From contig NC_092673.1 of NCBI RefSeq assembly GCF_964355755.1, positions 18,597,648-18,661,647 on the forward strand: 64,000 nt of DNA, written 5' to 3'. This document shows positions 7,756-59,349 of the stretch, piece after piece (the stretch's first letter is position 1; each line of letters begins with the position of its first letter). Origin of the DNA: Antedon mediterranea. Taxonomy: Eukaryota > Animalia > Echinodermata. Made by a program: the position numbers and the translations under genes. The notes under the pieces were generated by a model. That model was not told where the DNA came from. It did not search any database and was given only the letters and a program-made list of their open reading frames with translations.

Positions 7756-10700
7756 TTATTTCGAGTTAAGCAGATTAACAATATATCTGTCGGTTTTGCA
7801 TTTAGGCACTTCCAGATTTCCACCATTGGATCTAAGGTTTAATTTTCGCTTGCGGCAAGGAGGGAGCATATCCCTATGCAAAGCCGATTTTATGAGACCC
7901 TGACCAAAGGAAAGCACCAGACTTTCCCTCCTTGCCGCAAGCGAAAGGAGTTGCGTCTCCTCTAAAGCTAAATCGTACGATATATAATTTTTTCCCAGGA
8001 TAGTTCTTAGAGCTCTTTTTTGAACAGCTTCAATTTTATGCGCTAATTTTTTAGTAATTGCACCATGCCACACAGGGCATGCATACTCAAGAATAGGTCT
8101 AATATAGCAACAGAACACCTTGATCAGGTCATTCACAGACGCGCGAGACCTCCTCATCACAAATAAAGCAAACATCTTTCGAGATGCCTTAGAGACTATG
8201 TCTGTGACATGCATGTCCCATTTCATATTATCTTGAATAGTAACCCCTAACAATTTGAGGTTGCCAACACATTCAAGGATAGTATTGTTGAGGGTGAATG
8301 GCTGGAACTCACTAGCATTACGCAAAAAATTAATTGTCATAACATGGCATTTAGACGGTTTCGGCAACATATTGTTAGCTTTACACCAGTCATCCAAATC
8401 ATCAAGGGAGACCTGTAAATAGGAATTATTGTTTTTTTTTCACGACTTCACCTAGAGTGAGATCATCCACATACTTCCATCTTCTGCAGCTTCCTAGACT
8501 GGCATCATTAATTAGGACCAGAAATAAAACTGGGCCCAATTTAGTGCCCTGGGGCACGCCGCAGGTGATCTTTCTTGTACCCGAGATGGTCTTACCCACT
8601 CTGGTATTGATGCCTCTATTAGTAAGGAAGCTGCAGATAATGGGTATTATGGATGATCTCACTCCGATATCTATTAATTTGTTAATAATTATAGTATGAT
8701 CAACCCGATCAAAGGCTTTAGCAAAATCAACCGCGCATAAATTAACATAACAATGTTTACCATCAGTATCCTTCAATACAGAATCAATTAAACTAATTAA
8801 GTAATGGGTGGTGGATGCACCCTTGCGGCTCCCGAATTGTCGACTATCAAGCTTAACGCTAATGTCCTCTATGATCCAATTAACTAAAAAAGTCTCAAAA
8901 GTTCTTGCTAATAAGGGTGTAAGTGAAATAGGACGCAGATCGTTACAGGTATTAGCTCCTTTGATTTTAGGGACAGGTACTACTGTCGCATGCTTCCACC
9001 TATCAGGGAAAGTACCTGCTTTTAGGGCGCAGTTAAACACATTGGTTATAGGGGGCGCTAGTTCAAAAGCACATTCTCTTAGAAGTTTAGCAGGCAGGTC
9101 TTCTGGATGTCCTGCCTTTTTGGGTTTTATTGATTGTAGCAATCTCTGGACCTGTCCAGGATAGATTTCAGGAGGCGGCTGCGAGGATGGAAGATATGCA
9201 GGCAAGTTGTTTTGGTCCAGAGCAGGTAATTGGCAACAGACATCCGCAAAGTGCTGATTAATTGATTCAGCGGTTTCCTTTTCGTTAAGACCTGGAATGC
9301 TAAATGACTGCTTCTGATTAAGATTACAAAGTTTTCCAACATTCTTGTGCCATTTGGAGGAGTCCGAATTGTGAAGGCCAGAAATCGCGTCTTGGTAGTA
9401 AGATTTTTTCACATCCATAATCGCTTTTTGTACACCATTTCGAAGTTTTTTCCACTTGCTAGATTTTCCAAATTTAACATATGCTTTTTGTCGTTGCTTT
9501 ATGAGTTGTTTCACTCTTTTCGTAAGCCATGGGTGATCAGTACTCCTCATTTTCAGCAACTCAGTCGGGAAATTACTATAATAGGCATTTTGTAGAGTAG
9601 TAGCTAGCATCACAGTTTTATCATTTGTATCCATAAGGTCGTAGACATTATTCCATTCATAATCAACTAACCACTGGCCAAATTGCCTCATGGACGAGTC
9701 CTTCATAGGTCTAATCTTTACCGCGAAATGATCATTTTTAGGTAAACAAGTTATAGGCTTCATTAACACCGAGACGTGATCACTGCTCCCAATGGGTGCT
9801 TTCCGTACTATATCATTATATAATTCAGGGTAATTCATAAAAATTTTGTCAAGTGTAGAATCTTTCCGTGTATGACAATTAACTACTTGAGTTAGGCCAA
9901 GATTGTCACAAGCTCATTAGTATTAAGGTCGTTGAAGTCACCTAGAATTATAATTGGAACTTCATGGTTGGCACTGCGTATCCTGTCGACTGTTTCAATC
10001 ACATGCGATACAAGTTGTTCAGCTCCAGCCGCTGCGGGTGGATAATATATCGCACCAACATATAAGTGTTTCAAGCGCCTGATGTTATTGGGTATTGTAA
10101 TACAACACCAAAGACACTCAAAATTACACTGATCATGGTGTTCAGTGTGATTCATAATTAGCCTGTCAACTGAGTACACAGATACTCCACCACCTTTTCT
10201 TCCAACACGCATCTTATTGAAATGTTGATATCCAGGAATAGTTGCTAAATTTTCAGTTTCGGCATTTAACCACGTCTCAGTTACAACTGCCAAGTCAATT
10301 TTGTATTTGCTAAGGGTAGCCTCAAATTCATCCACTTTGTTTCTAATTGACCTTACATTGGTTAACAAAATCTTGGGGCACGAAAAAACGTTTATGTTCA
10401 TGTACTTAGTATTCTCAATAGTTATAAGATTGCTCAATACTCGGCCTCTCGTTTTACTAGCTTTACTAGAGTAAGGTCAGTGGTGGCGCCAGCGGGGGGG
10501 CTACGGGGGCTCTAGCCCCCTCGTCGGGGAGCCTAGCCCCCCCGTCGGGGAACACGGGTACTTTTTGTCGGGGAATATAACATACAGTAAAAAACGTTCG
10601 CATTCACTTCATATAGCTTCAGCGCCTAGAAAACCACGACGTTCCATTGACCGTGAGAGTACGTCAGAGGGAACTTTTATGCATTCATTATTGCCGGAGA

Positions 10701-12260
10701 TCTAACTACTAAACAATAGCTAGTACGCACTTGTTTGGCGGTATCCCTTTGTACGAATCGTTCACCGTTGGGTCGAGACGCGTGATATCATGTTCCATCC
10801 AGGGACCAAAATGTGTAATGTAGTTATTTTCCAGGCGAAGTTTACCGACGGTTCGGGTACTTTTTGTCGGGGAATATAATTCGTTCGCGTTCACTTCGTA
10901 GCTTTCAGCGCCTAGAAAACCTCGACGTTTCATTGACCGTGAGAGTACGTCAGAGTGATATTATGAACTTTATATGCATTCATTATTGCCAGCGATCTAA
11001 CTTACTACTAAACAATAGCTATAGGTACGCACTTGTCTGGCGGTATCCCTTTGTACGAATCGTTCAACGTTGGGTCGTGATATCATGTTCCATCCAGGGA
11101 CCAAAATGTGTACTGTAGTTATTTTCCAGGCGAAGTTTACCGACGGTTACGTCGTGTACTGTGTCGACGTACGCTACACTACTACAGCAAAAACGAATTA
11201 TGTTAATTGTTCGTATGTTCACCAATTTTTTAATTTACAAGTAACCTTCTGTACCGTGGGGCACCTAGAATAAATATTTCATCCATTACTAAACAAAAAA
11301 ACATGCCATTTTCGCTTAGCCAACATCTTATTATAGCTAAGTTATTAAATTTTCAATGTGCTGTATGTCATGAATTTCTCACCACTCGGAAGTCCAGATG
11401 GTACGCAGGCATACACTTGGGAGGAATACACTTATTTCCCCGACTGAAAAAGGTCTACGCTTGCGTTTTTTAAGCCTCTGGGCCTGATGTTTCCAAAGTA
11501 TAAAATGCAGTTTTTTGAAGACCTGCAGCTCTAGTTTTAAACATTTTCTTAGCTCAGCCCCAACAATAAAGCTGGTCATATTTCGAAGTACAAGAAGTGC
11601 ATTTTCCGGGAACCTAAAATCTCTATTTTTCAAACATTTCTTAGCTCAGTCACAACCATGATAGGGACTTATATATTTTGTTTCATGTTTTGAAGTATAA
11701 TAAGTCCAATTTCCAGGACCTCCAACTCTATTTTTCTAAATTTTCTTTGAACTTTTATTTTTTAAATTGAAAAAATATGGATTGAAACAGTCATCGCGCA
11801 TCGTTTTTTTTGCACGCAGTATTTTATTTATGCATTATAAAAAATGGAAAAAATGGCTACACTAAATCTGGTTAAAATGACCTCAAATGACGCTAGAACG
11901 CGTTGCTCCCGGGGGCTTCTCCCCCTGGACCCCCACCGGGGGCCCTTGGCGGCCCCTTGGCGGCCCCCTGTCCCCCAGCCTTGTGATGCTCGCTTCGCCC
12001 CCTCGTCGGGGAATATAGCCCCCGCGTCGGGAAGATCCTGGCGCCACCCCTGAGTAAGGTGTGTTAATAATCACCGATATTTTTCTTCTTAATTTCCTAC
12101 CTCCTCGCTTGCGATGTCTCCGTTTACAAAATGGCCGACTTGGTCTTGGCCCTTCACTGTTTAATTCGCTATTGAATGCGATGACGTCGGGAGGAGGTAT
12201 GCCTCGGTTCGCGAATCGAAGTGCGACGAGATCCTGGGCTGAATATCGAAGATAGCACAT
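7756..12260 (-). pseudogene. LINE APE-endonuclease / reverse transcriptase ORF, disrupted
   Basis: EN motifs TNVRSIRNK, VTETWL, GDFN, SDH. RT motifs RPISLT, DFAKAFD, GVPQGTKLGP, KYVDD. Broken by the hAT insertion (10478-12052) and two frameshifts (~9905 and the homopolymer at ~8432-8440). Confidence 0.9.
10478..12052 (-). mobile_element. Non-autonomous hAT element, copy 2 (inverted relative to copy 1), inserted in the LINE ORF
   Basis: Same TIRs as 742-2640. Exact 8-bp TSD AGTAAGGT at 10470-10477 and 12053-12060. Two internal tandem units. Confidence 0.92.
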
Positions 12261-14189: not shown

Positions 14190-17100
14190 ATGAACAAGAT
14201 GATGATTATAGAAAAGAATTGACTATAGGTACGTTTATCACTGTTACAAAATTACAATATGAAAACAATGAGACAATGAGAGAAATAAAAAAAATGTATA
14301 AAATCTTCTGTTATATGTGTTTATTACCTGATTTGCTGCTAAAGACACACACACCCACAAGTAAACAATTACTAGAATTGTCTGGTTACAGTGCTTGATA
14401 CCATTAGCAGAGCTAAATATAAAAACCAAGTTTTCCATTTTATTATTCAACAAAAATATATTACCTGATATACTTTATGCTGGTAATCTCAAAACTATTT
14501 TACATTCAAATCTTAATTGATTATATATTTTATTGGGCCTTATTATATGTTTGTTAAAAAATAAACAATACTCAACTATGTGATTCGTATTGATATTAAT
14601 TGTTATTTGTTTCAGATCTGCACCGTGAATCAAACACTGACATGCAAGTATTTGATACTTTATGTACTCAGCACTATTTTTAACACACTGCCCAGGACAG
14701 ACCCAAGCTTTCACACTTTTTTTTGTTGACATGCTCTTTTTCATATTTTTTTTATTCTCTTTCACTTTTTTATAATTAAGTTACATTTGTTTAATTCTGT
14801 GTGTAAATTGGCCATAAAAGCACAGGTGAAACACAATTTGATACTGTATTGTTTTTTTTAATTAATATGATCATGATGCATTTAAATGTGCATTTATATT
14901 CCACTGTGACAATATAACAAGTTTTGAATATAATTTTTGTCATAATTATTTCACCGATATGATGACACTTTTTTAAATGAATGCCCAGATTAAACAAATT
15001 AGATAGTATTTATAGCTCAAACACAATACTTATTTATTGATACAAAATATTAATATGTACATTTTTTATAGCCTGAAATGGATAAAGAATTTTTGTAATG
15101 GTAAGTAAACCTTTTTTTTGACTAATCATGAGTCTTAAGATTTAAGAATTAAATTAAAAGTCAAACTTTATTTCTATTTATAGATATAAAGTAGTAATAA
15201 AATAAGAAATGTGTTGTAGGTGTAAAAATGAAAATAAGTATAACACGTGCCTACTGCACGCATCCATACACATGGGTATCTAAATGTAATGCCCTAAATG
15301 TGTATTAGGGAGATAGTGGTGCTTGCCGTAATTAGGTATCAAAATGTGGAGAATTGTACTGGAAAGGTTTTAAACTACACAAAGATATACTTGTAAGCAC
15401 AAAATATGTGTAAAGGTGGTCAAAATTCCAGAGAATTACAGAAACAAAATAATGTAATTTCATAATTATCATGGATGGACACACAGACGTATCCTCAAAT
15501 ATCTCAAATCAAAATATAAATCTTTGAAATCTATGAAAAGTATAAACAATTGTCTAGATCTTTCCTCTTCCAGAGCACTGGTGGATCATTTGTAGCTTTT
15601 TAATCATAGTCTTTGCAATCTGTACTCAATCTCTACTACCAGCAAGAATTGCCATAAGTATTGGCTTTTGCCTAATTCTTGTTGGAATTATCTGGTTTCT
15701 ACATGATAAAGTGACCAAGACAAACGTTTCACATTACAAGAAGCTACCTGAAGGTAGGTAAAATATGAGAGACAAAAGTTTTATTTTATTTTATTTGAAA
15801 ATCAAAAATAAAATCAAGACAGTGCAAAACAAATTCAAATAAATCGTCAACTTCAATAGTAAGCAGTACCATGATTTTAACAAAATCTAGTACTGTATTC
15901 ATTACGGAGACCCATAAGTTCCTATAAAGATATTTTGAAGACGAATTGCAGGAATTGAAACAATATAATATATAATTATGACTTTTTGATTACTGCAGAT
16001 CAACTTGTGGTGTTAAACGTGAGCTCTAAAGGTGGAACTCTCCATCTTAAAGCTGAAGACATAAAGTTGGAGATACCACCTGGAGCAATAGAAGAAGGAA
16101 AGGCAGTTAACATATCACTAGAAAATTTTATGGAAGAAATAGACTTTCCTGTACTTCATCCTCTTGAATCAGTAGTATCACCTGTTGTAAAATGTAGACC
16201 AGGAGGCACTGTCTTCCACAAGCCCTGTACTCTATCATTTCCACACAACGCTGTAAATGAAAAATTTTGGAAATTCACATTACTTGTTAAAAATCGCATT
16301 GAAGATAAATGGAGACAAATATCATTAAAAAGTGATGAAAAGGACATAACCTTTACTGTATGCAAAGGTCGGTGTTATGTAACTTTAAATCATTTCTGTC
16401 AATATGTGGCTGTGGGTCATCCAGCAGATGTTAATTATATGGCGAAGAGAAAAATGAAGTTATTGGTTTTTAGAAAGAGGATTACAAATTTTAAATATGA
16501 ACTTCAGATAAGACTTTGTAACCCAGGAGATATAAGGGTATGTACTATCAATTTCTTGATTGGTTGAAATGACATTGCATGACGAAAACGTCATCTAAAA
16601 TATTTTTTATATTAACTGTTCTGACTCCATGATGACATAATATGTCATGCGGGTGTAATATTATTACATATTATTATATTGTTCATCTAAGACACTGTGA
16701 AACAGAGTAGGTTACAATTTGTTGGCGATGGCAGCCAATTCAAATTGTTTATTGGAACTCTATATAATACAACCATTCTAAAATTGATGCATATTTATTG
16801 CATGTGTGTTACTGTTAGTGTATTATGTATTTCAGAAGATAACTGAAGAGCATGAACAGCACGAAGGAAAGCTTTTACAAACACCAGTAGATATACTTTG
16901 TTTGAATAAAAACATGATCATTACTGTAGAATCAAATTCAGATGAATGGCGTATTATGGAGCAAGAGAAAGTAAAATCATCTTTCAATATTGCAAATTAA
17001 GAAATAAAAATATGAATTAAAAACATTTATTTTAATTTTAATGTGATATAGTACACTAGAACTTTTATGAATATGAATTTTAAAAATATTAAAAATATCT

Positions 17101-20100
17101 TAAAAGTATCTTAGTTATTCACCTCAGCAGTTGGTCAAAGCCCTTGTATGGTTTCTTTTCTAGAAAATCAATGCTGAATACATATGGCATGCAACACCAC
17201 AAAAGAGTTTTCAATTAACAAGACGGAATTTATCAGAAAATCTTTTAAACGTAACAGTATCACCTTCACAAGCGGGAAATGAAATTGATCCAGTAAATGT
17301 GAATTGTATGTATTTAAAATAGTATACAAATAATGAACGTTTATGAGTTGGATGGTGGAGAATATTTCATGAGTTGATAGAGGTTGTTATATCTTTAACT
17401 CAGTAAATACAAATACGAAAAATTGCCAGGCAATTAAAAGTGATGTAGGCTAATTCTGTTTTTTTTTTCCACAGACTTCTTGTATAATTAATCAAAATCA
17501 GCGTTCCGCAACCTTTTTTGACCGAGACCCAATGATCCTATTTTGGGAATTCTTGCGACCCAACATTGCGAATTTGAGCTTACAGGCAAATTGTGTTTTA
17601 GTATAAAGTCACTCCAGTGGATATTTAGATTAGAACAAATTTGAAAATGGACCAAACATACATTGTCAGTTTTGAAAACAACACATTATTGAAATTTAAT
17701 TTAATTCATATATTCATTGTCTTTTCAGGTGAACTAGAAAATCCAATGTAAGTAGTTTATGGGTTATCAGATATTGATACAAAGTTATGATATACAGACA
17801 AGTATAGCAAAATTAGTATTTACAATTTTTACGTAAAATATTTATAGATAACTTAAGACAAACAAGAATACAGAGGTTTTTCTTATGCTCTCATAATTTT
17901 TGTATGGAGCATCATCAAATATAATACTCATCCTGTTAGCAAGAAGCCACAAAGTATGATTCGGAAAAAAAGAATTTCAACTTTCATTACTAAATCAATA
18001 CAATTTTAACATTTTGTTAATGAATGATCACTTGGTTATCAATTGGTTAATGTTAAACAACAAGAAACTATTTTATTTCGCTTTGGTAATCGTTCGAGAT
18101 CACGTGAGATCCCGTTGCGCACGCGCACATCAGTTCGTTGCATACACACAAAATCAGAAGTCTTCGACATCGAATATCTAAAGAAAAATTGATTATTTTG
18201 TAAGAAATACACATCATATTATCTATTAAGCACTGTTTGATGAAGGACAACTTATCACTCGGTAAGAGGGATGACGAAAAATCAAGAAAAATAGTAGAAG
18301 TAGGGCTTGAGAGCTCAGAAACTTAGACAGGTTTCGGCGACCCTGTGGGGCCAGGCGTGCTACTTCATAGCGGGAATAAAATACTGCGCCCACTGGGCCG
18401 GTAAATATAAAGCAGCGAGAACTGATACATGATTCTAAACATAAATCCACTAAATCAAAACAAAAACCTGTCTCAGAAACACCTACATAACTGTCTTGAC
18501 AAAATTGAGCATTTTATGAAGGAGTCTCGTCAAGAAAACAGTGAACTACGAGAGAAGTTAGAAACTGTATTGCTAGGACATACTAGCGATGAATATGATG
18601 ATGATCAATGCCCGTGTGGTCAGTACATAGAATCAGAATATAAAATCCACCAACAGGATGATGTTGCAAGTAGGTACATCACTCACTACATATCTGACTC
18701 TGATGAAGCGGTCGAGCCAGAGAATTTGGCCCAGTGCCAAGAAAAGATAAACAAACCGAAAAGTTAGGGTTTGCTAAACGTTTTGCCACTCTTATTGAGG
18801 AGGGAAAACTTCGGAAAGAATCTCAAGCAGATAGTGTAAACTACATTATCACAAATCCGCTGGAAGAGAAATACATGACAGAAATTTGTCAAAAATATCC
18901 CAAACCAATAAATTTAACACTAAATGTACGAAATCTGGATTTGAAGATTCAGAAATGCCAGAAACCTCTTGTCAAAGTTGCCTTTTTGAGATCAGCTGAT
19001 GAATTGCCAATTCTCACTAAGACACAGGAAGATAACGTGGCTTTATTGGCAAGCGCACACTTTGAACTGAATCAGTTGCGAAAGAAGCTGATCAAACCTG
19101 ATCTTAATTCTCGATCACTCATCTCTGTAAAACACGAGTAAAGACAACTGAATGGTTGTTTGGCAATGACCTTCACAAGGCAGTGAAAGAATTAGAGGAA
19201 GAACAGAAAACCATAGGCGTTGTGAAAAACCACCACGGGCAATATAGGTCACATCGGTTCACACCATATCAGAACTTAGGCTCTAGTACTAATACAAGAT
19301 CTTATCAATACCAGAACAACCGTTCGATAAATACAGGCTGGTCAGCAAGCCGTAGTAGATCACACCTGTCTTTTTAGGGCAAGGGCAACTTCAAAACCTG
19401 CACTGTCGATGAGAAATTCCAGGTACAAACGGGGAAGATATGTTGCGTCCACACAGTCGTTGGGAAAGCGGCAGTTCAATCAGAACTAAACCAATTAAAA
19501 ACTCAAATTATGAGAATGGTGAATTTTTATCAAATATTGTTACCAGACGCAAAAAAGATAGCGAATACCGTATGATCCTAGACTTATCTCAATTAAACAA
19601 ATTCATAAAATATTACCATTTCAAGATGGACTGTTTTGATACAGCCATAAAATTCATAAAAAAAGACTGCTTTATGACATCAATTGATCTCTGAGATGCA
19701 TATTATTCAATTTCTATTGCAAAACACCATAGAAAATATTAAAAATTTAGATTGAATGATGATCTATGGCAATTCTGCAGCACAACTATTTTCTAACTTG
19801 GGGTTTGCTATACATCTATCTAAATCAGTAATTGAGCCAGTAGGAGAAATTTCTTGTACGATTTGTAATATACTCTCGCACTGTGAAAATAAGCCTCACA
19901 AAAGAAAAGACCCAAGAAATATGTAATCAATGTATATCACTATACAAAAATTAGACACACTATACGTTCTGTCTCATCGGTTATAGGTAAATTCGTTGCG
20001 GCCTTTCCGGGTGTTCAATATAGACCACTACATTACCGTGGGCTTGAAAAAGACAAAATCTGTGCACTGAGACTAAACAAATAATTTGATAGAAAAATTA

Positions 20101-22168
20101 CCATCACACAAACCACTAAAAGGGAACTCAAATGGTAGATTTAAAATGCTAAATCGGCAACAGCAAAATAGATCATGGGGTACCCTCTGTGAACTTAACT
20201 AGTGATGCATCGGGCCTAGGTGCGTCAAATGGTTCTATTCACATAGGTGGGAGATGGAATTCCAAGGAAATAGAAAAAATCAAGTCATATGAAATAAACT
20301 ATCTAGAAATAAAGGCAGCTTTGTTTGCACTAAAAGCTTTTTGTGTAAATAGTTCAAATAGCCATGTTTTGATAAATGTGACAATACCACTGCATTGGTG
20401 TATATAAATAACATGGGGGTAAACATTCTGGAATTTTTGACTGCACTATATCCTACGTTAGGATAGAGTGCTCTCAACACCACAAAAGCTACGTTGTCAT
20501 TGTTTGTGACCCGCAAAGATGGCACTCAGTTAGGCACTCATCTTTTAATTTGCAAATGTATGAAACCACCTGCACCGTAAAACCAGTACTTAACCTTATA
20601 AGGAAACAGTTTCCAGTTGAATCTCTCAACCTTCGAGATTTGACCCTAAAAATGTGTATGCTGGTAGCGCTAATCACTGCACAACGTCAACAAACACTCC
20701 ATTTGCTAAAAATAGACACAATGCAAGTGACGACCTGGTCGGTAATTTTCAAAACAATGAATTATTAAAACAGAACAGACCAGGGAAGCCGACGTGTTGC
20801 TATCTAAATGTCAAGAAATATCTACAAGACCCTAATATTTGTGTTACACTGCGTTAGTAGAATACATTGACCACACAAAAGACCTTCGCAATGGTGAAGT
20901 GTATTTATTTATAACAAAAAACCTTATAAGAGAGTTACAACTGACACTATAGCATGATGGATTAAATGCGAGATGCAAATTGCGGGAATTGATGTTACAC
21001 AGTTTAAACCTCACTCAACCAGGTCGGCAGCAGTTTCAAAAGTAAAACAATCTATGCTTCCAGTCTCTGATATTTTGCAACATGTGAGTTGGAACATATT
21101 ACGATAAACCCATTCAAGAAGATGGTTGTAACTTTGCTCTCGCACTAATGAAAGAATAAATGTTAATTACCATAACTAACAAGCGAGCACACTATATTGA
21201 GTTAGTTTGATAAAATGTTATAACTTTAGTACAGTTACATTTTGCTTGAGTTTAATATCCCACGATGGAATGTTATACACAGAGAGATTGAAGTTCCTAC
21301 AAAACGTTAAATTAAAAATCGCTAACATGTTACTCTAAATGCTAAGTAAAAGTACTTTATGGCAAGTTGGAGTATAGGTTGTTAAAAGTGTTTATTACAA
21401 TATACAAGTTGTGTTTGGGATCAAGCTTGAAATCCAACGTTGGGAAGTTATACTCAGGCAATCAAAATGTTATTTAAATAATAAATATTAATGTTATTTA
21501 ATTACATGTGTCATTATTTACCCAAATAAACTGGTCGTTGAGGCCAGAGTTTCTTTAAACTCATGTGATCTCGAACGATTACCATAGCGAAATAAAATAA
21601 GAAGATTAAACGAGAACTTACCTGTTCAAAGTTTGATCTTTATTTTATGAGGTAGGTTAAGTGAGAGATAACAACTTATTTTAATATACTTTATTAAGTT
21701 ATTAGAGTTTTAAATATGCGTACATTTTCATTTCTAGTCTGTGCCAAATGAGGTCTTTCTGGAAGTTATTACAAGGTATTTAACTTTTCTATTTTTTGTT
21801 AGTTCAGAGTCTGAAAAAGTTTAATTTGTTCATACATTGTTTTGCTATTAGAAGACTGGATGCAATTTATAAGATTTTTTTCTTAAATAGTAATTGTAAA
21901 TTGTATTTTTAGCTAATCTTCATAATCTTAAAAGCTCAAGCAACAATATGTTTGTTCTACTTTTATTTCAGAACACTGGTGGATAGTTACTGTATTTTTG
22001 TTTGGTCTACTTGCAATCGCTGCAGTCTTGATTATTTGCTTCGCTAAAGAACCACTCATAATTGGCCTAGGTCTTAGTGTGTTAACTGCTGGTGTTTCAG
22101 GTATCTGGTATGTACATAGGAAAATGACGCCTCCGTCAGCAGGCAGACAGCAGATAGAAGCAGTCTAA
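14190..22168 (+). CDS. Spliced host gene: membrane hairpin - ZU5 - UPA-like - membrane hairpin protein (UNC5C-like/ZU5 family; 5' end not found)
   Basis: Phase-consistent exons 14190-14228, 14616-14643 (GC donor), 15072-15100, 15574-15753, 15999-16537, 16836-16970, 17164-17305, 17729-17747, 21738-21775, 21972-22168 (TAA). They join into one open frame. ZU5 hallmarks: GGTLHL..IKLEIPPGAI, VSPVVKCRPGGTVFHKPCTLSFPH, LNHFC. Confidence 0.8.
15574..15753 (+). CDS. Exon encoding the first two-helix hydrophobic hairpin
   Basis: Canonical AG/GT, phase 1-1. Translates (E)HWWIICSFLIIVFAICTQSLLPARIAISIGFCLILVGIIWFLHDKVTKTNVSHYKKLPE. Confidence 0.75.
15999..16537 (+). CDS. ZU5-domain exon
   Basis: Lies within ORF 15986..16567. 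Acceptor ctgcag|at, donor agg|gtatgt. Clear ZU5 sequence pattern. Confidence 0.9.
18429..19377 (+). pseudogene. DIRS gag-like ORF, fragmented
   Basis: ORF pieces 18429-18767, 18734-19141, 19156-19377 with LLASAHFELNQLRK..IKP and LFGNDL motifs. Confidence 0.7.
19440..20420 (+). pseudogene. DIRS reverse transcriptase / RNase H, fragmented
   Basis: FLSNIVTRRKKDSEYRMILDLSQLN..HFKMD..IDL*DAYYSI; LTSDASGLG..W..INYLEIKAALFALKAF. Stops and deletions present. Confidence 0.85.
20550..21100 (+). pseudogene. DIRS tyrosine recombinase, fragmented
   Basis: LRDLTLKMCMLVALITAQRQQTL, and FKPHSTRSAAVSK at ~21003-21041 (HSTR catalytic box). Confidence 0.85.
21972..22168 (+). CDS. Terminal coding exon encoding the second two-helix hydrophobic hairpin
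   Basis: Acceptor tttcag. Translates (E)HWWIVTVFLFGLLAIAAVLIICFAKEPLIIGLGLSVLTAGVSGIWYVHRKMTPPSAGRQQIEAV*. Confidence 0.78.
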
Positions 22169-25100
22169 AACAAGAACAATAGAATGACATTCAATGGTCT
22201 GTATGTATGTATACATCATGACAGCAGATAGAAGCAGTCTAAAACAAGAACAATAGAATGACATTCAATGGTCTGTATGTATATATACATCATGTCAGCA
22301 GATAGAAGCAGTCTAAAACAAGAACAATAGAATGACATTCAATGGTGTGTATGTATATATACATCATGACAGCAGATAGAAGCAGTCTAAAACAAGAACA
22401 ATAGAATGACATTCAATGGTCTGTATGTATATATACATCATGACAGCAGATAGAAGCAGTCTAAAACAAGAACAAGAGAATGACATTCAATGGTGTGTAT
22501 GTATATATACATCATGACAGCAGATAGAAGCAGTCTAAAACAAGAACAATAGAATGACATTCAATGGTGTGTATGTATATATACATCATGACAGCAGATA
22601 GAAGCAGTCTAAAACAAGAACAATAGAATGACATTCAATGGTGTGTATGTATATATACATCATGACAGCAGATGGAAGCAGTCTAAAACAAGAACAATAG
22701 AATGACATTCAATGGTGTGTATGTATATATACATCATGACAGCAGATAGAAGCAGTCTAAAACAAGAACAATAGAATGACATTCAATGGTCTGTATGTAT
22801 AAATACATGTCAGCAGTTGGAAGCAGTCTAAAACAAGAACAATAGAATGACATTCAATGGTCTGTATGTATATATACATCATGTCAGCAGATCGAAGCAG
22901 TCTAAAACAAGAACAATAGAATGACATTCAATGGTCTGTATGTATAAATACATGTCAGCAGTTGGAAGCAGTCTAAAACAAGAACAATAGAATGACATTC
23001 AATGGTCTGTATGTATAAATACATGTCAGCAGTTGGAAGCAGTCTAAAACAAGAACAATAGAATGACATTCAATGGTATGTATGTATAAATACATCATGA
23101 CAGCAGATAGAAGCAGTCTAAAACAAGAACAATAGAATGACATTCAATGGTCTGTATGTATAAATACATCATGTCAGCAGATAGAAGCAGTCTAAAACAA
23201 GAACAATAGAATGACATTCAATGGTCTGTATGTATAAATACATCATGTCAGCAGATGGAAGCAGTCTAAAACAAGAACAATAGAATGACATTCAATGGTC
23301 TGTATGTATAAATACATCATGTCAGCAGTTGGAAGCAGTCTAAAACAAGAACAATAGAATGACATTCAATGGTCTGTATGTATATATACATCATGTCAGC
23401 AGATGGAAGCAGTCTAAAACAAGAACAATAGAATGACATTCAATGGTCTGTATGTATAAATACATCATGTCAGCAGATGGAAGCAGTCTAAAACAAGAAC
23501 AATAGAATGACATTCAATGGTCTGTATGTATAAATACATCATGACAGCAGATAGAAGCAGTCTAAAACAAGAACAATAGAATGACATTCAATGGTCTGTA
23601 TATATAAATACATCATGTCAGCAGATGGAAGCAGTCTAAAACAAGAACAATAGAATGACATTCAATGGTCTGTATGTATATATACATCATGACAGCAGAT
23701 AGAAGCAGTCTAAAACAAGAACAATAGAATGACATTCAATGGTCTGTATGTATAAATACATCATGTCAGCAGATGGAAGCAGTCTAAAACAAGAACAATA
23801 GAATGACATTCAATGGTCTGTATGTATATATACATGTCAGCAGTTGGAAGCAGTCTAAAACAAGAACAATAGAATGACATTCAATGGTATGTATGTATAA
23901 ATACATCATGACAGCAGATAGAAGCAGTCTAAAACAAGAACAATAGAATGACATTCAATGGTCTGTATGTATAAATACATGTCAGCAGTTGGAAGCAGTC
24001 TAAAACAAGAACAATAGAATGACATTCAATGGTCTGTATGTATATATACATCATGACAGCAGATAGAAGCAGTCTAAAACAAGAACAATAGAATGACATT
24101 CAATGGTCTGTATGTATAAATACATGTCAGCAGTTGGAAGCAGTCTAAAACAAGAACAATAGAATGACATTCAATGGTCTGTATGTATAAATACATCATG
24201 ACAGCAGATAGAAGCAGTCTAAAACAAGAACAATAGAATGACATTCAATGGTCTGTATGTATAAATACATCATGTCAGCAGATAGAAGCAGTCTAAAACA
24301 AGAACAATAGAATGACATTCAATGGTCTGTATGTATAAATACATCATGTCAGCAGATAGAAGCAGTCTAAAACAAGAACAATAGAATGACATTCAATGGT
24401 CTGTATGTATAAATACATCATGTCAGCAGATGGAAGCAGTCTAAAACAAGAACAATAGAATGACATTCAATGGTCTGTATGTATAAATACATCATGTCAG
24501 CAGTTGGAAGCAGTCTAAAACAAGAACAATAGAATGACATTCAATGGTCTGTATGTATATATACATCATGTCAGCAGATGGAAGCAGTCTAAAACAAGAA
24601 CAATAGAATGACATTCAATGGTCTGTATGTATAAATACATCATGTCAGCAGATGGAAGCAGTCTAAAACAAGAACAATAGAATGACATTCAATGGTCTGT
24701 ATGTATAAATACATCATGTCAGCAGATGGAAGCAGTCTAAAACAAGAACAATAGAATGACATTCAATGGTCTGTATGTATATATACATCATGACAGCAGA
24801 TGGAAGCAGTCTAAAACAAGAACAATAGAATGACATTCAATGGTCTGTATGTATATATACATCATGTCAGCAGATGGAAGCAGTCTAAAACAAGAACAAT
24901 AGAATGACATTCAATGGTCTGTATGTATAAATACATCATGTCAGCAGATGGAAGCAGTCTAAAACAAGAACAATAGAATGACATTCAATGGTCTGTATGT
25001 ATAAATACATCATGACAGCAGATAGAAGCAGTCTAAAACAAGAACAATAGAATGACATTCAATGGTCTGTATGTATAAATACATCATGTCAGCAGATGGA

Positions 25101-28057
25101 AGCAGTCTAAAACAAGAACAATAGAATGACATTCAATGGTCTGTATGTATATATACATCATGACAGCAGATAGAAGCAGTCTAAAACAAGAACAATAGAA
25201 TGACATTCAATGGTCTGTATGTATATATACATCATGTCAGCAGATAGAAGCAGTCTAAAACAAGAACAATAGAATGACATTCAATGGTCTGTATGTATAA
25301 ATACATCATGTCAGCAGATGGAAGCAGTCTAAAACAAGAACAATAGAATGACATTCAATGGTCTGTATGTATAAATACATCATGTCAGCAGATGGAAGCA
25401 GTCTAAAACAAGAACAATAGAATGACATTCAATGGTCTGTATGTATAAATACATCATGTCAGCAGATAGAAGCGGTCTAAAACAAGAACAATAGAATGAC
25501 ATTCAATGGTCTGTATGTATAAATACATCATGTCAGCAGATAGAAGCAGTCTAAAACAAGAACAATAGAATGACATTCAATGGTCTGTATGTATAAATAC
25601 ATCATGTCAGCAGATAGAAGCAGTCTAAAACAAGAACAATAGAATGACATTCAATGGTCTGTATGTATAAATACATCATGTCAGCAGATAGAAGCAGTCT
25701 AAAACAAGAACAATAGAATGACATTCAATGGTCTGTATGTATAAATACATCATGTCAGCAGATGGAAGCAGTCTAAAACAAGAACAATAGAATGACATTC
25801 AATGGTATGTATGTATAAATACATCATGACAGCAGATAGAAGCAGTCTAAAACAAGAATAGAATGACATTCAATGGTCTGTATGTATAAATACATCATGA
25901 CAGCAGATAGAAGCAGTCTAAAACAAGAACAATAGAATGACATTCAATGGTCTGTATGTATAAATACATCATGTCAGCAGATGGAAGCAGTCTAAAACAA
26001 GAACAATAGAATGACATTCAATGGTCTGTATGTATATATACATCATGACAGCAGATAGAAGCAGTCTAAAACAAGAACAATAGAATGACATTCAATGGTC
26101 TGTATGTATATATACATCATGTCAGCAGATAGAAGCAGTCTAAAACAAGAACAATAGAATGACATTCAATGGTCTGTATGTATAAATACATCATGTCAGC
26201 AGTTGGAAGCAGTCTAAAACAAGAACAATAGAATGACATTCAATGGTATGTATGTATAAATACATCATGTCAGCAGATGGAAGCAGTCTAAAACAAGAAC
26301 AATAGAATGACATTCAATGGTCTGTATGTATATATACATCATGACAGCAGATGGAAGCAGTCTAAAACAAGAACAATAGAATGACATTCAATGGTCTGTA
26401 TGTATAAATACATCATGTCAGCAGATGGAAGCAGTCTAAAACAAGAACAATAGAATGACATTCAATGGTCTGTATGTATAAATACATCATGTCAGCAGAT
26501 GGAAGCAGTCTAAAACAAGAACAATAGAATGACATTCAATGGTCTGTATGTAATGTATAAATACATCATGTCAGCAGATGGAAGCAGTCTAAAACAAGAA
26601 CAATAGAATGACATTCAATGGTATGTATGTATAAATACATCATGTCAGCAGATGGAAGCAGTCTAAAACAAGAACAATAGAATGACATTCAATGGTCTGT
26701 ATGTATATATACATCATGTCAGCAGATGGAAGCAGTCTAAAACAAGAACAATAGAATGACATTCAATGGTCTGTATGTATATATACATCATGACAGCAGA
26801 TGGAAGCAGTCTAAAACAAGAACAATAGAATGACATTCAATGGTCTGTATGTATAAATACATCATGTCAGCAGATGGAAGCAGTCTAAAACAAGAACAAT
26901 AGAATGACATTCAATGGTCTGTATGTAATGTATAAATACATCATGACAGCAGATAGAAGCAGTCTAAAACAAGAACAATAGAATGACATTCAATGGTCTG
27001 TATGTATAAATACATCATGTCAGTAGATGGAAGCAGTCTAAAACAAGAACAATAGAATGACATTCAATGGTCTGTATGTATAAATACATCATGTCAGCAG
27101 ATGGAAGCAGTCTAAAACAAGAACAACAGAATGACATTCAATGGTCTGTATGTATATATACATCATGACAGCAGATAGAAGCAGTCTAAAACAAGAACAA
27201 TAGAATGACATTCAATGGTCTGTATGTATATATACATCATGACAGCAGATAGAAGCAGTCTAAAACAAGAACAATAGAATGACATTCAATGGTCTGTATG
27301 TATAAATACATCATGTCAGCAGATAGAAGCAGTCTAAAACAAGAACAATAGAATGACATTCAATGGTCTGTATGTATAAATACATCATGTCAGCAGATAG
27401 AAGCAGTCTAAAACAAGAACAATAGAATGACATTCAATGGTCTGTATGTATATATACATCATGACAGCAGATGGAAGCAGTCTAAAACAAGAACAATAGA
27501 ATGACATTCAATGGTCTGTATGTATATATACATCATGTCAGCAGATAGAAGCAGTCTAAAACAAGAACAATAGAATGACATTCAATGGTCTGTATGTATA
27601 AATACATCATGTCAGCAGATAGAAGCAGTCTAAAACAAGAACAATAGAATGACATTCAATGGTCTGTATGTATAAATACATCATGTCAGCAGATGGAAGC
27701 AGTCTAAAACAAGAACAATAGAATGACATTCAATGGTATGTATGTATAAATACATCATGACAGCAGATAGAAGCAGTCTAAAACAAGAACAATAGAATGA
27801 CATTCAATGGTCTGTATGTATAAATACATCATGTCAGCAGATGGAAGCAGTCTAAAACAAGAACAATAGAATGACATTCAATGGTCTGTATGTATAAATA
27901 CATCATGTCAGCAGATAGAAGCAGTCTAAAACAAGAACAATAGAATGATATTCAATGGTATGTATGTATAAATACATCATGACAGCAGATAGAAGCAGTC
28001 TAAAACAAGAACAATAGAATGACATTCAATGTTCTGTATGTATAAATACATCATGTC
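22146..28057 (+). repeat. 74-bp tandem array (~80 units, ~5.9 kb)
   Basis: Unit gacagcagatagaagcagtctaaaacaagaacaatagaatgacattcaatggtctgtatgtatatatacatcat with a few shuffled variant sites. Confidence 0.98.
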
Positions 28058-28414
28058 ATGTTATAAATTTTAAATGCAAAGAAAGAACTTGCAAGAATGC
28101 TAAAGATAGATGTGAAATTAAAAGTTTGTGAATAAGTCAACACAGTTGATTGTAAGAACAAAAATAATAAAATGAATGAATGGTGTCGTGACATGAAAAA
28201 AAAAACATTCCAAAATTGTAAATAAGTAGAATAAGTACAGTAGTAGTAGTATAGCTTTTATTTCTTTGTAATATAAAACGCTATAAAAAGAACAAAAAAA
28301 ATACTATACAAAAATTACAAGAGGTCAGTATCATATATGTGTAAAATACTGACAGGATTGTGAAGCTTGTCACAATGATGAATGGCTAAAAGCTCTAGAG
28401 GGTTTAATTTGAAA

Positions 28415-56884: not shown

Positions 56885-59349
56885 TATATAACCTGCATGT
56901 ACTGATTAACCACATTAGGCTATAAATAATAATATAAATACACACTGATGGTATAACCTACATGTACTGATTAATCACATTAGGCTAAAAATAATAATAT
57001 AAATACACACTGATGATGGAGGGGTGTCACGAAACCTAAGACCACGAAAGCTAAGACCCCCTAAGACCTAAGATCACGAAAGCTAAGACCCAAGACCTAA
57101 GATTACAAATTCTAAGATATACTACAGCTTAAAAACAATACTTGTTTATCCATACATAATTTTAAAGACATATAGGTTTCATTTATTACCATAAATATAA
57201 TTTAATACTACCGCAAAACATAGATAAACTCACATTATTTTCGCCCGTTGAGTAAATGTATATTTTTTCTTTACAACAAACAAACTTGACGGGTTGTTTG
57301 TTGGTATATATTTACTCCAATGTGTTGGTTCAGAGGATGTTTTTCTTACGCACCTGCTTTTCTTGTATTTTGACTCCAAATTTGTTGACTAACTTTATCC
57401 TGAATACCACACTTTAAAATTAGGACTTATAAGTACTTTCAGAAGGAGAAACACATAATAACAAATAAATAAATCCTTTAAATTGATGATTTTACAGATG
57501 TGTTTCTTTGTATACTGTAATGTAACTCCTCGAGCTCCACATGCTCAATGTTTTTGTTTCTATGGAGCGCCAAAAGAGCAACAATAATAGTACAAGTATA
57601 AAAACAGAAAGAAAACGAAACAAAAAAACTTATCATGATTTTTAAGTTAAAATTTATTTGCCAGTATTTATTTCTTTGTACTTGCATGATTATACTATTA
57701 TCATTACAATTTTAATTTTACATTGTTCCATCCACACTGTAGATGGACTCCACAGAGTTTTTAGCCCTCCATATAATTTTTGCTCTTTTGACATTCCATA
57801 GAAACAAAAACATTGAACATGGGGTAGGCCTACTAGTGTACTGTCTGTAGGCTAGTCATTTTGTGTGCGAGAAAAACGTCTGTAAAATCATCAATTTAAA
57901 AATGTATTTGTTACTTTTTATGTGATTCTTTTTCATGAAAGTGCCAATTCTAAGGTGTGGTATTCAGAATAAATGTTGGGAGTTAAAATACAAGGCAGGT
58001 GCGAAAGATAAATATTTGTAATCTTAGGTTGGGGGTCTTAGCTTTCGTGGTCTTAGGTTTCGTGACACCCGATGATGGAGGTATAACCTGCATGTACTGA
58101 TTAATCACATTAGGCTAAAAATAATAATATAAATACACACTGATGATGGAGGTATAACCTGCATGTACTGATTAATCACATTAGGCTAAAAATAATACAA
58201 ATACACACTAATGATGGAGGTATAACCTGCATGCACTGATTAACCACATTAGGCTAAAAATAATAATATAAATACACACTGATGATGGAGGTATAACCTG
58301 CATGTACTGATTAACAACATTAGGCTAAAAATAATAATATAAATACACACTGATGATGGAGGTATAACCTGCATGCACTGATTAACCACATTAGGCTATA
58401 AATGATAATATAAATACACACTGATGATGGGGGTATAACCTGCATGCACTGATTAACAACATTAGGCTAAAAATAATAATATAAATACACACTGATGATA
58501 GGGGTATAACCTGCATGTACTGATTAACCACATTAGGCTAAAAATAATAATATAAATACACACTGATGATGGAGGTATAACCTGCATGCACTGATTAACC
58601 ACATTAGGCTAAAAATAATAATATAAATACACACTGATGATGGAGGTATAACCTGCATGCACTGATTAACCACATTAGGCTAAAAATAATAATATAAATA
58701 CACACTGATGATGGGGGTATAACCTGCATGCACTGATTAACGACATTAGGCTAAAAATAATAATATAAATACACACGGATGATGGAGGTATAACCTGCAT
58801 GCACTGATTAACCACATTAGGCTAAAAATAATATAAATACACACTGATGATGGAGGTATAACCTGCATGCACTGATTAACAACATTAGGCAAAAAATAAT
58901 AATATAAATACACACTGATGATGGAGGTATAACCTGCATGCACTGATTAACCACATTAGGCTAAAAATAATAATATAAATACACACTAATTATGGATGTA
59001 TAACCTGCATGCACTGATTAACCACATTAGGCTAAAAATAATAATATAAATACACACTGATGATGGAGGTATAACCTGCATGTACTGATTAACAACATTA
59101 GGCTAAAAATAATAATATAAATACACACTGATGATGGGGGTATAACTTGCATGTACTGATTAACCACATTAGGCTAAAAATAATAATATAAATACACACT
59201 GATGATGGAGGTATAACCTGCATGCACTGATTAACCACATTAGGCTAAAAATAATAATATAAATACACACTGATGGTGGAGGTATAACCTGCATGCACTG
59301 ATTAACAACATTAGGCTAAAAATAATAATATAAATACACACTGATGATT
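56885..59349 (+). repeat. 71-bp tandem array (~20 units) interrupted by a transposon
   Basis: Unit gatgatggaggtataacctgcatgcactgattaaccacattaggctaaaaataataatataaatacacact. Confidence 0.95.
57022..58070. mobile_element. MULE-like MITE inserted in the 71-bp array
   Basis: Perfect TIR GGGTGTCACGAAACCTAAGACCACGAAAGCTAAGACCCCC. Exact 10-bp TSD GATGATGGAG at 57012-57021 and 58071-58080. Confidence 0.9.

What the first reader, a model, noticed from the sequence alone, without database searches (positions are those of the whole stretch)
14190..22168. ZU5/UPA-like protein held between two duplicated membrane-hairpin modules, no death domain
Seen: the ORF track shows only the ZU5 exon and the next one, but splicing by hand gives one open frame. 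A three-exon module occurs twice with identical intron phases (1-2 micro-exon, 2-1 micro-exon, then an exon starting EHWWI): 14616/15072/15574 before the ZU5, and 17729/21738/21972 after the UPA-like part. Both end in two hydrophobic helices closed by G(I)IW(F/Y)xH. Known: ZU5-UPA proteins (UNC5, UNC5CL, PIDD1, ankyrins) normally carry a C-terminal death domain and at most one TM helix. Inference: this is a four-TM architecture made by exon-module duplication, tethering the ZU5-UPA unit to the membrane at both ends. It could be a lineage-specific signalling or immune sensor-effector family. I do not recognise this architecture but cannot search for it.
Basis: partly seen in the sequence, partly recalled or inferred. 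Interest (0 to 1): 0.78.

Follow-up and report, generated by a model that had tools for sequence, protein, structure and literature searches.

The report
Double-anchored self-cleaving feather-star immune protein
A feather-star gene places the ZU5-UPA unit known from self-cleaving human immune sensors between two related copies of a predicted membrane hairpin, so the protein would likely cut itself into two membrane-anchored halves, but its front end is not in view and may hold the cell-death domains that its closest relative carries there.

Summary
Ten exons (14190-22168) give 447 open codons. All 9 junctions, one GC-AG, appear in contigs of one run guessed to be RNA, and one contig joins hairpin 1, ZU5-UPA and hairpin 2. 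RefSeq (Antedon mediterranea, 'UNC5C-like') holds residues 136-447 exactly. The two modules are homologous (z 10.9); the model of the middle matches UNC5b ZU5-UPA (Z 19). New here: an HF/C motif sits at the PIDD1-type self-cleavage position, and homologues keep a nucleophile there. 'No death domain' is shown only for the C-terminus and this window. There is no Met before residue 136, so the start lies upstream, unseen, and the nearest paralogue is tandem-DED-like, membrane repeats, ZU5-UPA, hairpin. Best reading: a membrane-tethered, likely self-cleaving member of a crinoid ZU5-UPA/tandem-DED expansion, assembled by exon-module shuffling. The scan had no earlier ZU5 note in this genome and no look-alike sequence; one sea-urchin note describes a related layout. 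New variant of a known kind; interest 0.42.

The parts
14190..14228 (+). Most 5' exon found; phase 1-1 linker micro-exon, no in-frame start
   Evidence: junction to 14616 in X1
14616..14643 (+). Module 1, phase 1-2 micro-exon with GC donor
   Evidence: GC..AG joint in X1
15072..15100 (+). Module 1, phase 2-1 micro-exon; amphipathic helix (highest hydrophobic moment of 437 windows)
15574..15753 (+). Module 1 hairpin exon: two predicted membrane helices, basic tail
15999..16537 (+). ZU5 domain, HF/C motif (residues 223-225 of the spliced frame) and start of UPA
   Evidence: Pfam ZU5 E 4.2e-19
16836..16970 (+). UPA, middle exon
17164..17305 (+). UPA, last exon
17729..17747 (+). Module 2, phase 1-2 micro-exon
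   Evidence: letters between the joint in X1 (table 5c); P0005
18063..21677 (+). Decayed mobile element in the intron, 40-nt inverted repeats near its ends; DIRS-like by recalled motifs only
   Evidence: DNA run X2 has a joint across it (table 5c); Pfam gave no fitting hit
21738..21775 (+). Module 2, phase 2-1 micro-exon; amphipathic helix
21972..22168 (+). Module 2 hairpin exon and stop codon
   Evidence: (to 22128)
22148..28058 (+). 74-bp satellite, 80 copies; its first unit holds the last codons and the stop

Best explanation
The gene splices a ZU5-UPA unit between two homologous amphipathic-helix-plus-hairpin modules and belongs to a crinoid expansion whose members mostly carry tandem DED-like domains; its product is predicted to sit in a membrane by both ends and likely cuts itself at HF/C, and its unseen 5' exons likely supply a tandem DED-like output as in its nearest paralogue. 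Shown: exon chain, module homology, family membership, motif and its conservation. Predicted: fold, four membrane helices with ZU5-UPA and both termini on the cytosolic side (short loops, basic residues after each hairpin). Inferred from PIDD1, UNC5CL and CARD8/NLRP1: an N-to-S acyl shift cleaves the chain, the halves stay latched through the last ZU5 strand, and unlatching or removal of one half frees an N-terminal (DED)-hairpin-ZU5 piece from a UPA-hairpin piece that would cluster in the membrane. The hairpins would serve as anchors that set location and local concentration of an immune or cell-death signalling complex. The trigger is unknown.
For: 9 of 9 junctions in X1 contigs; P0005 identical to residues 136-447. 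Model of P0005 from a 70-sequence alignment: pLDDT 89.4; UNC5b Z 19.0, rmsd 2.4 A over 228 residues, CARD8 FIIND Z 13.4, NLRP1 FIIND Z 10.5. HF/C lies at the turn before the last ZU5 strand, where CARD8 and PIDD cut (PMC3210808, passages, which names Ser, Thr or Cys as the nucleophile). Of 131 complete homologous domains (33 partial set aside), 101 have HF and all 101 follow it with T (66), S (25) or C (10); 14 of 14 crinoid domains have S, T or C there. Tree of 18 rows: sister is P0006 (93/91, below the starred level), in a clade (82/88) where P0006, P0003 and P0154 have the DED-like profile N-terminal to ZU5. P0002 ends in the same HWW module after its DED-like pair (z 7.3) and P0153 ends in a related hairpin (z 3.1, 20 of 2000 shuffles). 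No Met before 136 and Ile at 136 in the RNA contig require an upstream start.
Against: No DED-like exon in the 14 kb upstream (0 of 46 plus-strand frames of 50 aa or more hit Pfam), and RefSeq did not join one. The fifth member of the clade, partial model P0008, has no DED-like hit. The paralogues' DED call is weak (Pfam E 1.7e-6 to 0.06, all below the gathering score). Pfam UPA does not hit this protein; UPA rests on alignment and model. Cleavage is untested and a motif does not prove it. Helix 4 is marginal (1.75). RNA evidence is one run whose contig ends before the stop codon. No immune-challenge data.
Confidence: 0.5

Rival explanations
1. The protein truly has no death fold: a short N-terminus, hairpin, ZU5-UPA, hairpin. 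It would act as a membrane-bound decoy or regulator that joins DED-bearing paralogues through UPA and damps or relocates them.
For: No death-fold profile hit in the window; RefSeq has none; UPA promotes oligomerisation in CARD8 and NLRP1 (PMC7794386, abstract); at least 7 further ZU5-UPA models are on record on a 36.19-Mb contig like P0005.
Against: Sister and two clade members have N-terminal DED-like pairs; the start exon was not found among candidate donors in the window.
Confidence: 0.22
2. Death-domain-free sensor-effector: after self-cleavage the UPA-hairpin fragment oligomerises and the amphipathic helix plus hairpin disrupts the membrane, as two-TM effectors do in bacterial defence.
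For: The hairpin occupies the position of the death fold after UPA; amphipathic helix before each hairpin; hairpin-2 exon differs at 25 of 159 letters between the RNA contig and the window against 7 of 996 elsewhere (P 8e-17), and 22 of 24 listed differences change a residue (17.7 expected, P 0.03).
Against: The same module is a plain single tail anchor in P0002; Pfam two-TM effector hits are weak and below cut-off (CyanoTRADDas_TM E 0.032, Saf_2TM E 0.16); the helices carry few polar pore-lining residues (sequence).
Confidence: 0.1
3. A 5'-truncated relic or recent shuffling product: still transcribed, translated only from an internal Met or not at all.
For: No start exon seen; RefSeq starts at Met136; no sign of purifying selection between the two alleles (22 of 24 differences nonsynonymous); transposons upstream and inside, satellite over the stop.
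Against: Open frame and canonical splice sites over 10 exons; none of the 24 listed differences makes a stop and the contig pieces have no gaps; hydropathy of hairpin 2 is kept in the divergent version (3.0 and 2.18); Met136 start would cut ZU5 in half.
Confidence: 0.15

Closest known systems
UNC5CL (ZUD) and UNC5C-like proteins
   Same: Membrane-anchored ZU5-UPA without ectodomain; autoproteolysis preserved in Unc5CL (PMC10084454, passage). 54 of 154 fetched homologues have one or two hydrophobic windows only N-terminal to ZU5; 38 of 70 aligned ones have a Pfam Death domain.
   Different: Two hairpins instead of one N-terminal helix; no death domain after UPA; Cys instead of Ser as nucleophile.
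PIDD1, and the FIIND of CARD8/NLRP1
   Same: ZU5-UPA fold (Z 13.4 and 10.5) and a cleavage motif before the last ZU5 strand (PMC3210808, passages).
   Different: Those are soluble, with DD or CARD on the released C-terminal piece; here the C-terminal piece ends in a membrane hairpin.
Antedon mediterranea XP_071957970/XP_071957969 (P0006/P0153)
   Same: Nearest paralogue (66% over the ZU5 exon); HF/C; hydrophobic segments on both sides of ZU5-UPA; related C-terminal hairpin.
   Different: Has an N-terminal tandem DED-like pair and three hydrophobic repeats before ZU5; uncharacterised model.
Lineage-specific death-fold expansions of marine invertebrates (Kaur et al. 2021, PMC8195603)
   Same: Shuffled architectures that include DED, membrane helices and the UPA-ZU5 module, predicted to self-cleave (passages).
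   Different: Those centre on TRADD-N, which was not tested here; a ZU5-UPA between two hairpins is not in the 12 passages read.

Membership tests
UNC5CL-like | ZU5 domain | tested here: met
   Pfam E 4.2e-19
UNC5CL-like | UPA domain after ZU5 | tested here: met
   Model aligns to UNC5b 585-828, Z 19.0; full-length alignment to P0002, which has a sub-threshold Pfam UPA hit; no direct Pfam hit
UNC5CL-like | Membrane anchor N-terminal to ZU5 | tested here: met
   Two hydropathy peaks, 2.31 and 2.46; hairpin rather than single helix; prediction only
UNC5CL-like | C-terminal death domain | tested here: not met
   UPA is spliced to the hairpin module; no hit with a profile of 50 homologue tails or Pfam
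Autoproteolytic ZU5 (PIDD1, UNC5CL, FIIND) | H-F-nucleophile motif before the last ZU5 strand | tested here: met
   HF/C at 223-225; position in model
Autoproteolytic ZU5 (PIDD1, UNC5CL, FIIND) | Actual self-cleavage | not testable with these tools
   Needs expression and a Cys225Ala control
Crinoid ZU5-UPA/tandem-DED expansion | ZU5-UPA nests among crinoid paralogues | tested here: met
   12 crinoid rows form one clade, 98/97
Crinoid ZU5-UPA/tandem-DED expansion | Tandem DED-like pair in the same chain | tested here: inconclusive
   None in the window, but the 5' end is missing
Two-TM membrane effectors (Saf_2TM, CyanoTRADDas_TM) | Sequence match to the family profile | tested here: inconclusive
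   E 0.16 and 0.032, below gathering scores, as expected for any hydrophobic hairpin
Two-TM membrane effectors (Saf_2TM, CyanoTRADDas_TM) | Oligomerises and permeabilises membranes | not testable with these tools
   Needs a cell or liposome assay

The most novel reading that the evidence does not exclude
An animal self-cleaving sensor in which the death fold after UPA has been swapped for a fast-evolving amphipathic-helix-plus-hairpin effector: cleavage at HF/C and unlatching release a UPA-hairpin fragment that oligomerises and breaches the membrane with no caspase step, while the twin anchors make the ZU5 latch respond to membrane tension or sorting, as the related GAIN domain does to force.
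Probability: 0.1. Interest if true: 0.8.

Novelty: new variant of a known kind. Interest (0 to 1): 0.42.

Why it matters
ZU5-UPA switches (PIDD1, UNC5CL, CARD8, NLRP1) are understood as devices that free a death fold. A copy whose two cleavage products would both stay in the membrane asks what UPA does without a C-terminal death fold, and gives a natural Cys-nucleophile variant to test. It also documents how a three-exon membrane module is shuffled among crinoid immune-type genes, and shows that the RefSeq model is likely cut short at its 5' end. If the unseen exons hold tandem DEDs, it is one more architecture of an expansion type already described.

Tried and rejected
Complex prediction of four copies of the UPA-hairpin fragment gave no answer (score 0.00; alignment not used), which is no evidence either way. 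Fold and Atlas searches of the hairpin gave only generic helical hairpins (best Z 7.0). Homologue search with hairpin exon 1 found 0 of 2 candidates, and with P0005 only itself; both are word-limited. Single-sequence fold failed for ZU5-UPA. No whole genome is held, so the upstream contig and a genome-wide count of the HWW module could not be searched; within the window a module profile finds only the two known exons. No listed run is on record as RNA. The start exon was sought by tblastn of 12 paralogues, two profiles, a donor scan and Pfam without result. A second allele of the last exon in X1 was considered and dropped: the extra contig covers about 22 letters. Conversion of the X1 last exon from hairpin 1 was rejected by eye from the alignment (few changes move towards hairpin 1). 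A candidate exon at 17475 is skipped by the contig. Excess of nonsynonymous change in hairpin 2 alone is not significant (P 0.10-0.14). Similarity of hairpin 1 to the N-terminal repeats of P0153 is not significant. The UNC5CL primary paper is not held; supplements of PMC8195603, which list architectures, were not read and may bear on novelty.
Full report
Observation. The window is animal DNA (GC 26-43%). Five public runs hold the stretch, none on record as RNA. Run X1, guessed to be RNA and also holding intronic DNA, shows all 9 junctions: one 1229-nt contig runs from 15573 through ZU5-UPA to 22128, with the 17729 micro-exon as letters between a joint, and three short contigs give the upstream junctions, including the GC..AG one (the lengths add up). 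These three have only 28-30 letters on the short side, as micro-exons must. A RefSeq protein of Antedon mediterranea, named UNC5C-like (P0005), equals residues 136-447 letter for letter, which confirms the last five junctions and the stop as modelled there.

Anatomy. ZU5 hits Pfam at E 4.2e-19. UPA has no direct Pfam hit, but a model of P0005 from a 70-sequence alignment (pLDDT 89.4) matches UNC5b ZU5-UPA at Z 19.0, rmsd 2.4 A over 228 residues, then CARD8 (13.4), ankyrin-B (11.2) and NLRP1 (10.5) (Foldseek agrees on the top hit). Each flanking module is a 1-2 micro-exon, a 2-1 micro-exon coding an amphipathic helix (moment ranks 1 and 10 of 437 windows) and a hairpin exon. The modules are homologous beyond composition (0 of 2000 protein shuffles, 0 of 1000 codon shuffles). 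Hydropathy peaks are 2.31, 2.46, 3.06 and 1.75 against 1.08 inside ZU5-UPA, and module 2 is modelled as helix-helix-turn-helix. Short loops and basic residues after each hairpin suggest a cytosolic ZU5-UPA (inference from the positive-inside rule, recalled).

Self-cleavage motif. HF/C at 223-225 lies at the turn before the last ZU5 strand. PIDD cuts at HF/S and CARD8/NLRP1 at SF/S at this place, through Ser, Thr or Cys, and the pieces often stay associated (PMC3210808, passages). Unc5CL keeps this activity and one membrane helix (PMC10084454, passage; PMC7883297, passages). Among 164 homologous domains, 33 were partial; of the 131 complete ones, 101 have HF, always followed by T, S or C, and all 14 crinoid domains have S, T or C. 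Cleavage itself is untested.

The missing front end. The first in-frame Met is residue 136, within ZU5; the RefSeq product matches only positions 47-94 of the 97-position profile, and the X1 contig has Ile at 136. The 14190 exon opens in phase 1, and X1 cover of it works out to 38 letters, so it begins at about the acceptor, as a spliced upstream exon would give (inference). No upstream exon was identified: a DED-like profile from six Antedon regions (best window E 2.3; it finds three paralogues outside its training set), a death-domain profile from 50 homologue tails (best E 9.8), tblastn of 12 paralogues and Pfam on 46 upstream frames were all blank. So the absence of a death fold is shown after UPA and within these 64 kb, not for the protein.

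Family. A search of 1.84 billion representatives gave 348 hits; the 9 at E under 1e-30 are crinoid. Their architectures shuffle ZU5-UPA with tandem DED-like pairs, Roc-COR and membrane segments; the DED call is below Pfam's gathering score throughout. In a tree of 18 ZU5-UPA domains (P0005, P0153, P0009 and most distant hits left out) the 12 crinoid rows form a clade (98/97), and the window's sister is P0006 (93/91, not starred) inside a group (82/88) in which 3 of the 4 other rows have the DED-like pair before ZU5. Of 154 fetched proteins, only P0006 and its isoform P0153 have two or more hydrophobic windows on both sides of ZU5-UPA; these are the best 150 of 348 representatives plus a few extras, not a census. 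P0002 ends in the HWW module as a single tail anchor (z 7.3). The module is therefore a mobile anchor of this family, and the double-anchored layout is shared with one DED-bearing paralogue.

Variation. The X1 contig differs from the window at 25 of 159 letters in the last exon and 7 of 996 in the four listed exons before it (P 8e-17). Of the 32, 24 were listed; 22 change a residue (17.7 expected, P 0.03), none makes a stop, and both helices stay hydrophobic. This fits diversifying selection or conversion from a paralogous exon, but also a chimeric contig, a paralogue or a processed copy; one run cannot tell them apart.

Mechanism. Best reading (0.5): a membrane-tethered, likely self-cleaving member of the crinoid ZU5-UPA/tandem-DED family with DED-like output in unseen 5' exons; cleavage would leave two latched, membrane-anchored halves. 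Rivals: death-fold-free decoy acting through UPA (0.22), 5'-truncated relic (0.15), hairpin as membrane-breaching effector driven by UPA oligomerisation (0.10; UPA promotes assembly in CARD8 and NLRP1, PMC7794386, abstract). An immune role is inferred from domain company and lineage-specific shuffling, as described for marine invertebrates (PMC8195603, 12 passages); no expression data under challenge were available.

Novelty. Eight literature searches (listings and abstract starts) showed no description of this layout; crinoid plus ZU5 gave 0 papers. The library lacks most subscription papers and I read no supplements. Earlier notes of this scan hold no ZU5 locus in this genome and no look-alike sequence; they list hairpin, Roc-COR and tandem-DED shuffling on the same piece and a sea-urchin four-pass ZU5-UPA-death-domain gene, all unchecked. 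Verdict: real, transcribed by one run's contigs, a new variant of a known kind; interest 0.42.

Noticed in passing
window:18063-21677: Decayed element with inverted repeats between the two micro-exons of module 2; DNA run X2 has a contig joining 18062 to 21678, so an empty site likely exists. DIRS-like by recalled motifs; Pfam gave no fitting hit.
   Followed up: partly
window:22148-28058: 74-bp satellite, 80 copies, 96% matches, whose unit includes the gene's last codons and stop; ordinary sequence with an AATAAA resumes near 28170, as if the stop region was amplified inside the 3' UTR.
   Followed up: partly
window:22143-22150: At the place homologous to the donor of hairpin exon 1, hairpin exon 2 has a weak GC in place of GT; the last exon may be an internal exon that lost its donor.
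   Followed up: no
window:7756-10476 (-): LINE-type element: endonuclease and reverse transcriptase in separate frames, flanked by two related copies of a repeat at about 750-2640 and 10480-12050.
   Followed up: partly
window:36685-37858 (+): DDE_Tnp_4 (Harbinger-type, name recalled) transposase in two overlapping frames.
   Followed up: no
window:43422-46121 and 58071-59348: Two more satellites, 46 bp x 59 and 71 bp x 18.
   Followed up: no
P0006/P0153: Paralogue with three full and one truncated hydrophobic repeat between its DED-like pair and ZU5; an odd number of passes would put them on opposite sides of the membrane.
   Followed up: no
P0003: Antedon protein with Roc-COR, DED-like pair, ZU5-UPA and a second DED-like pair.
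   Followed up: no
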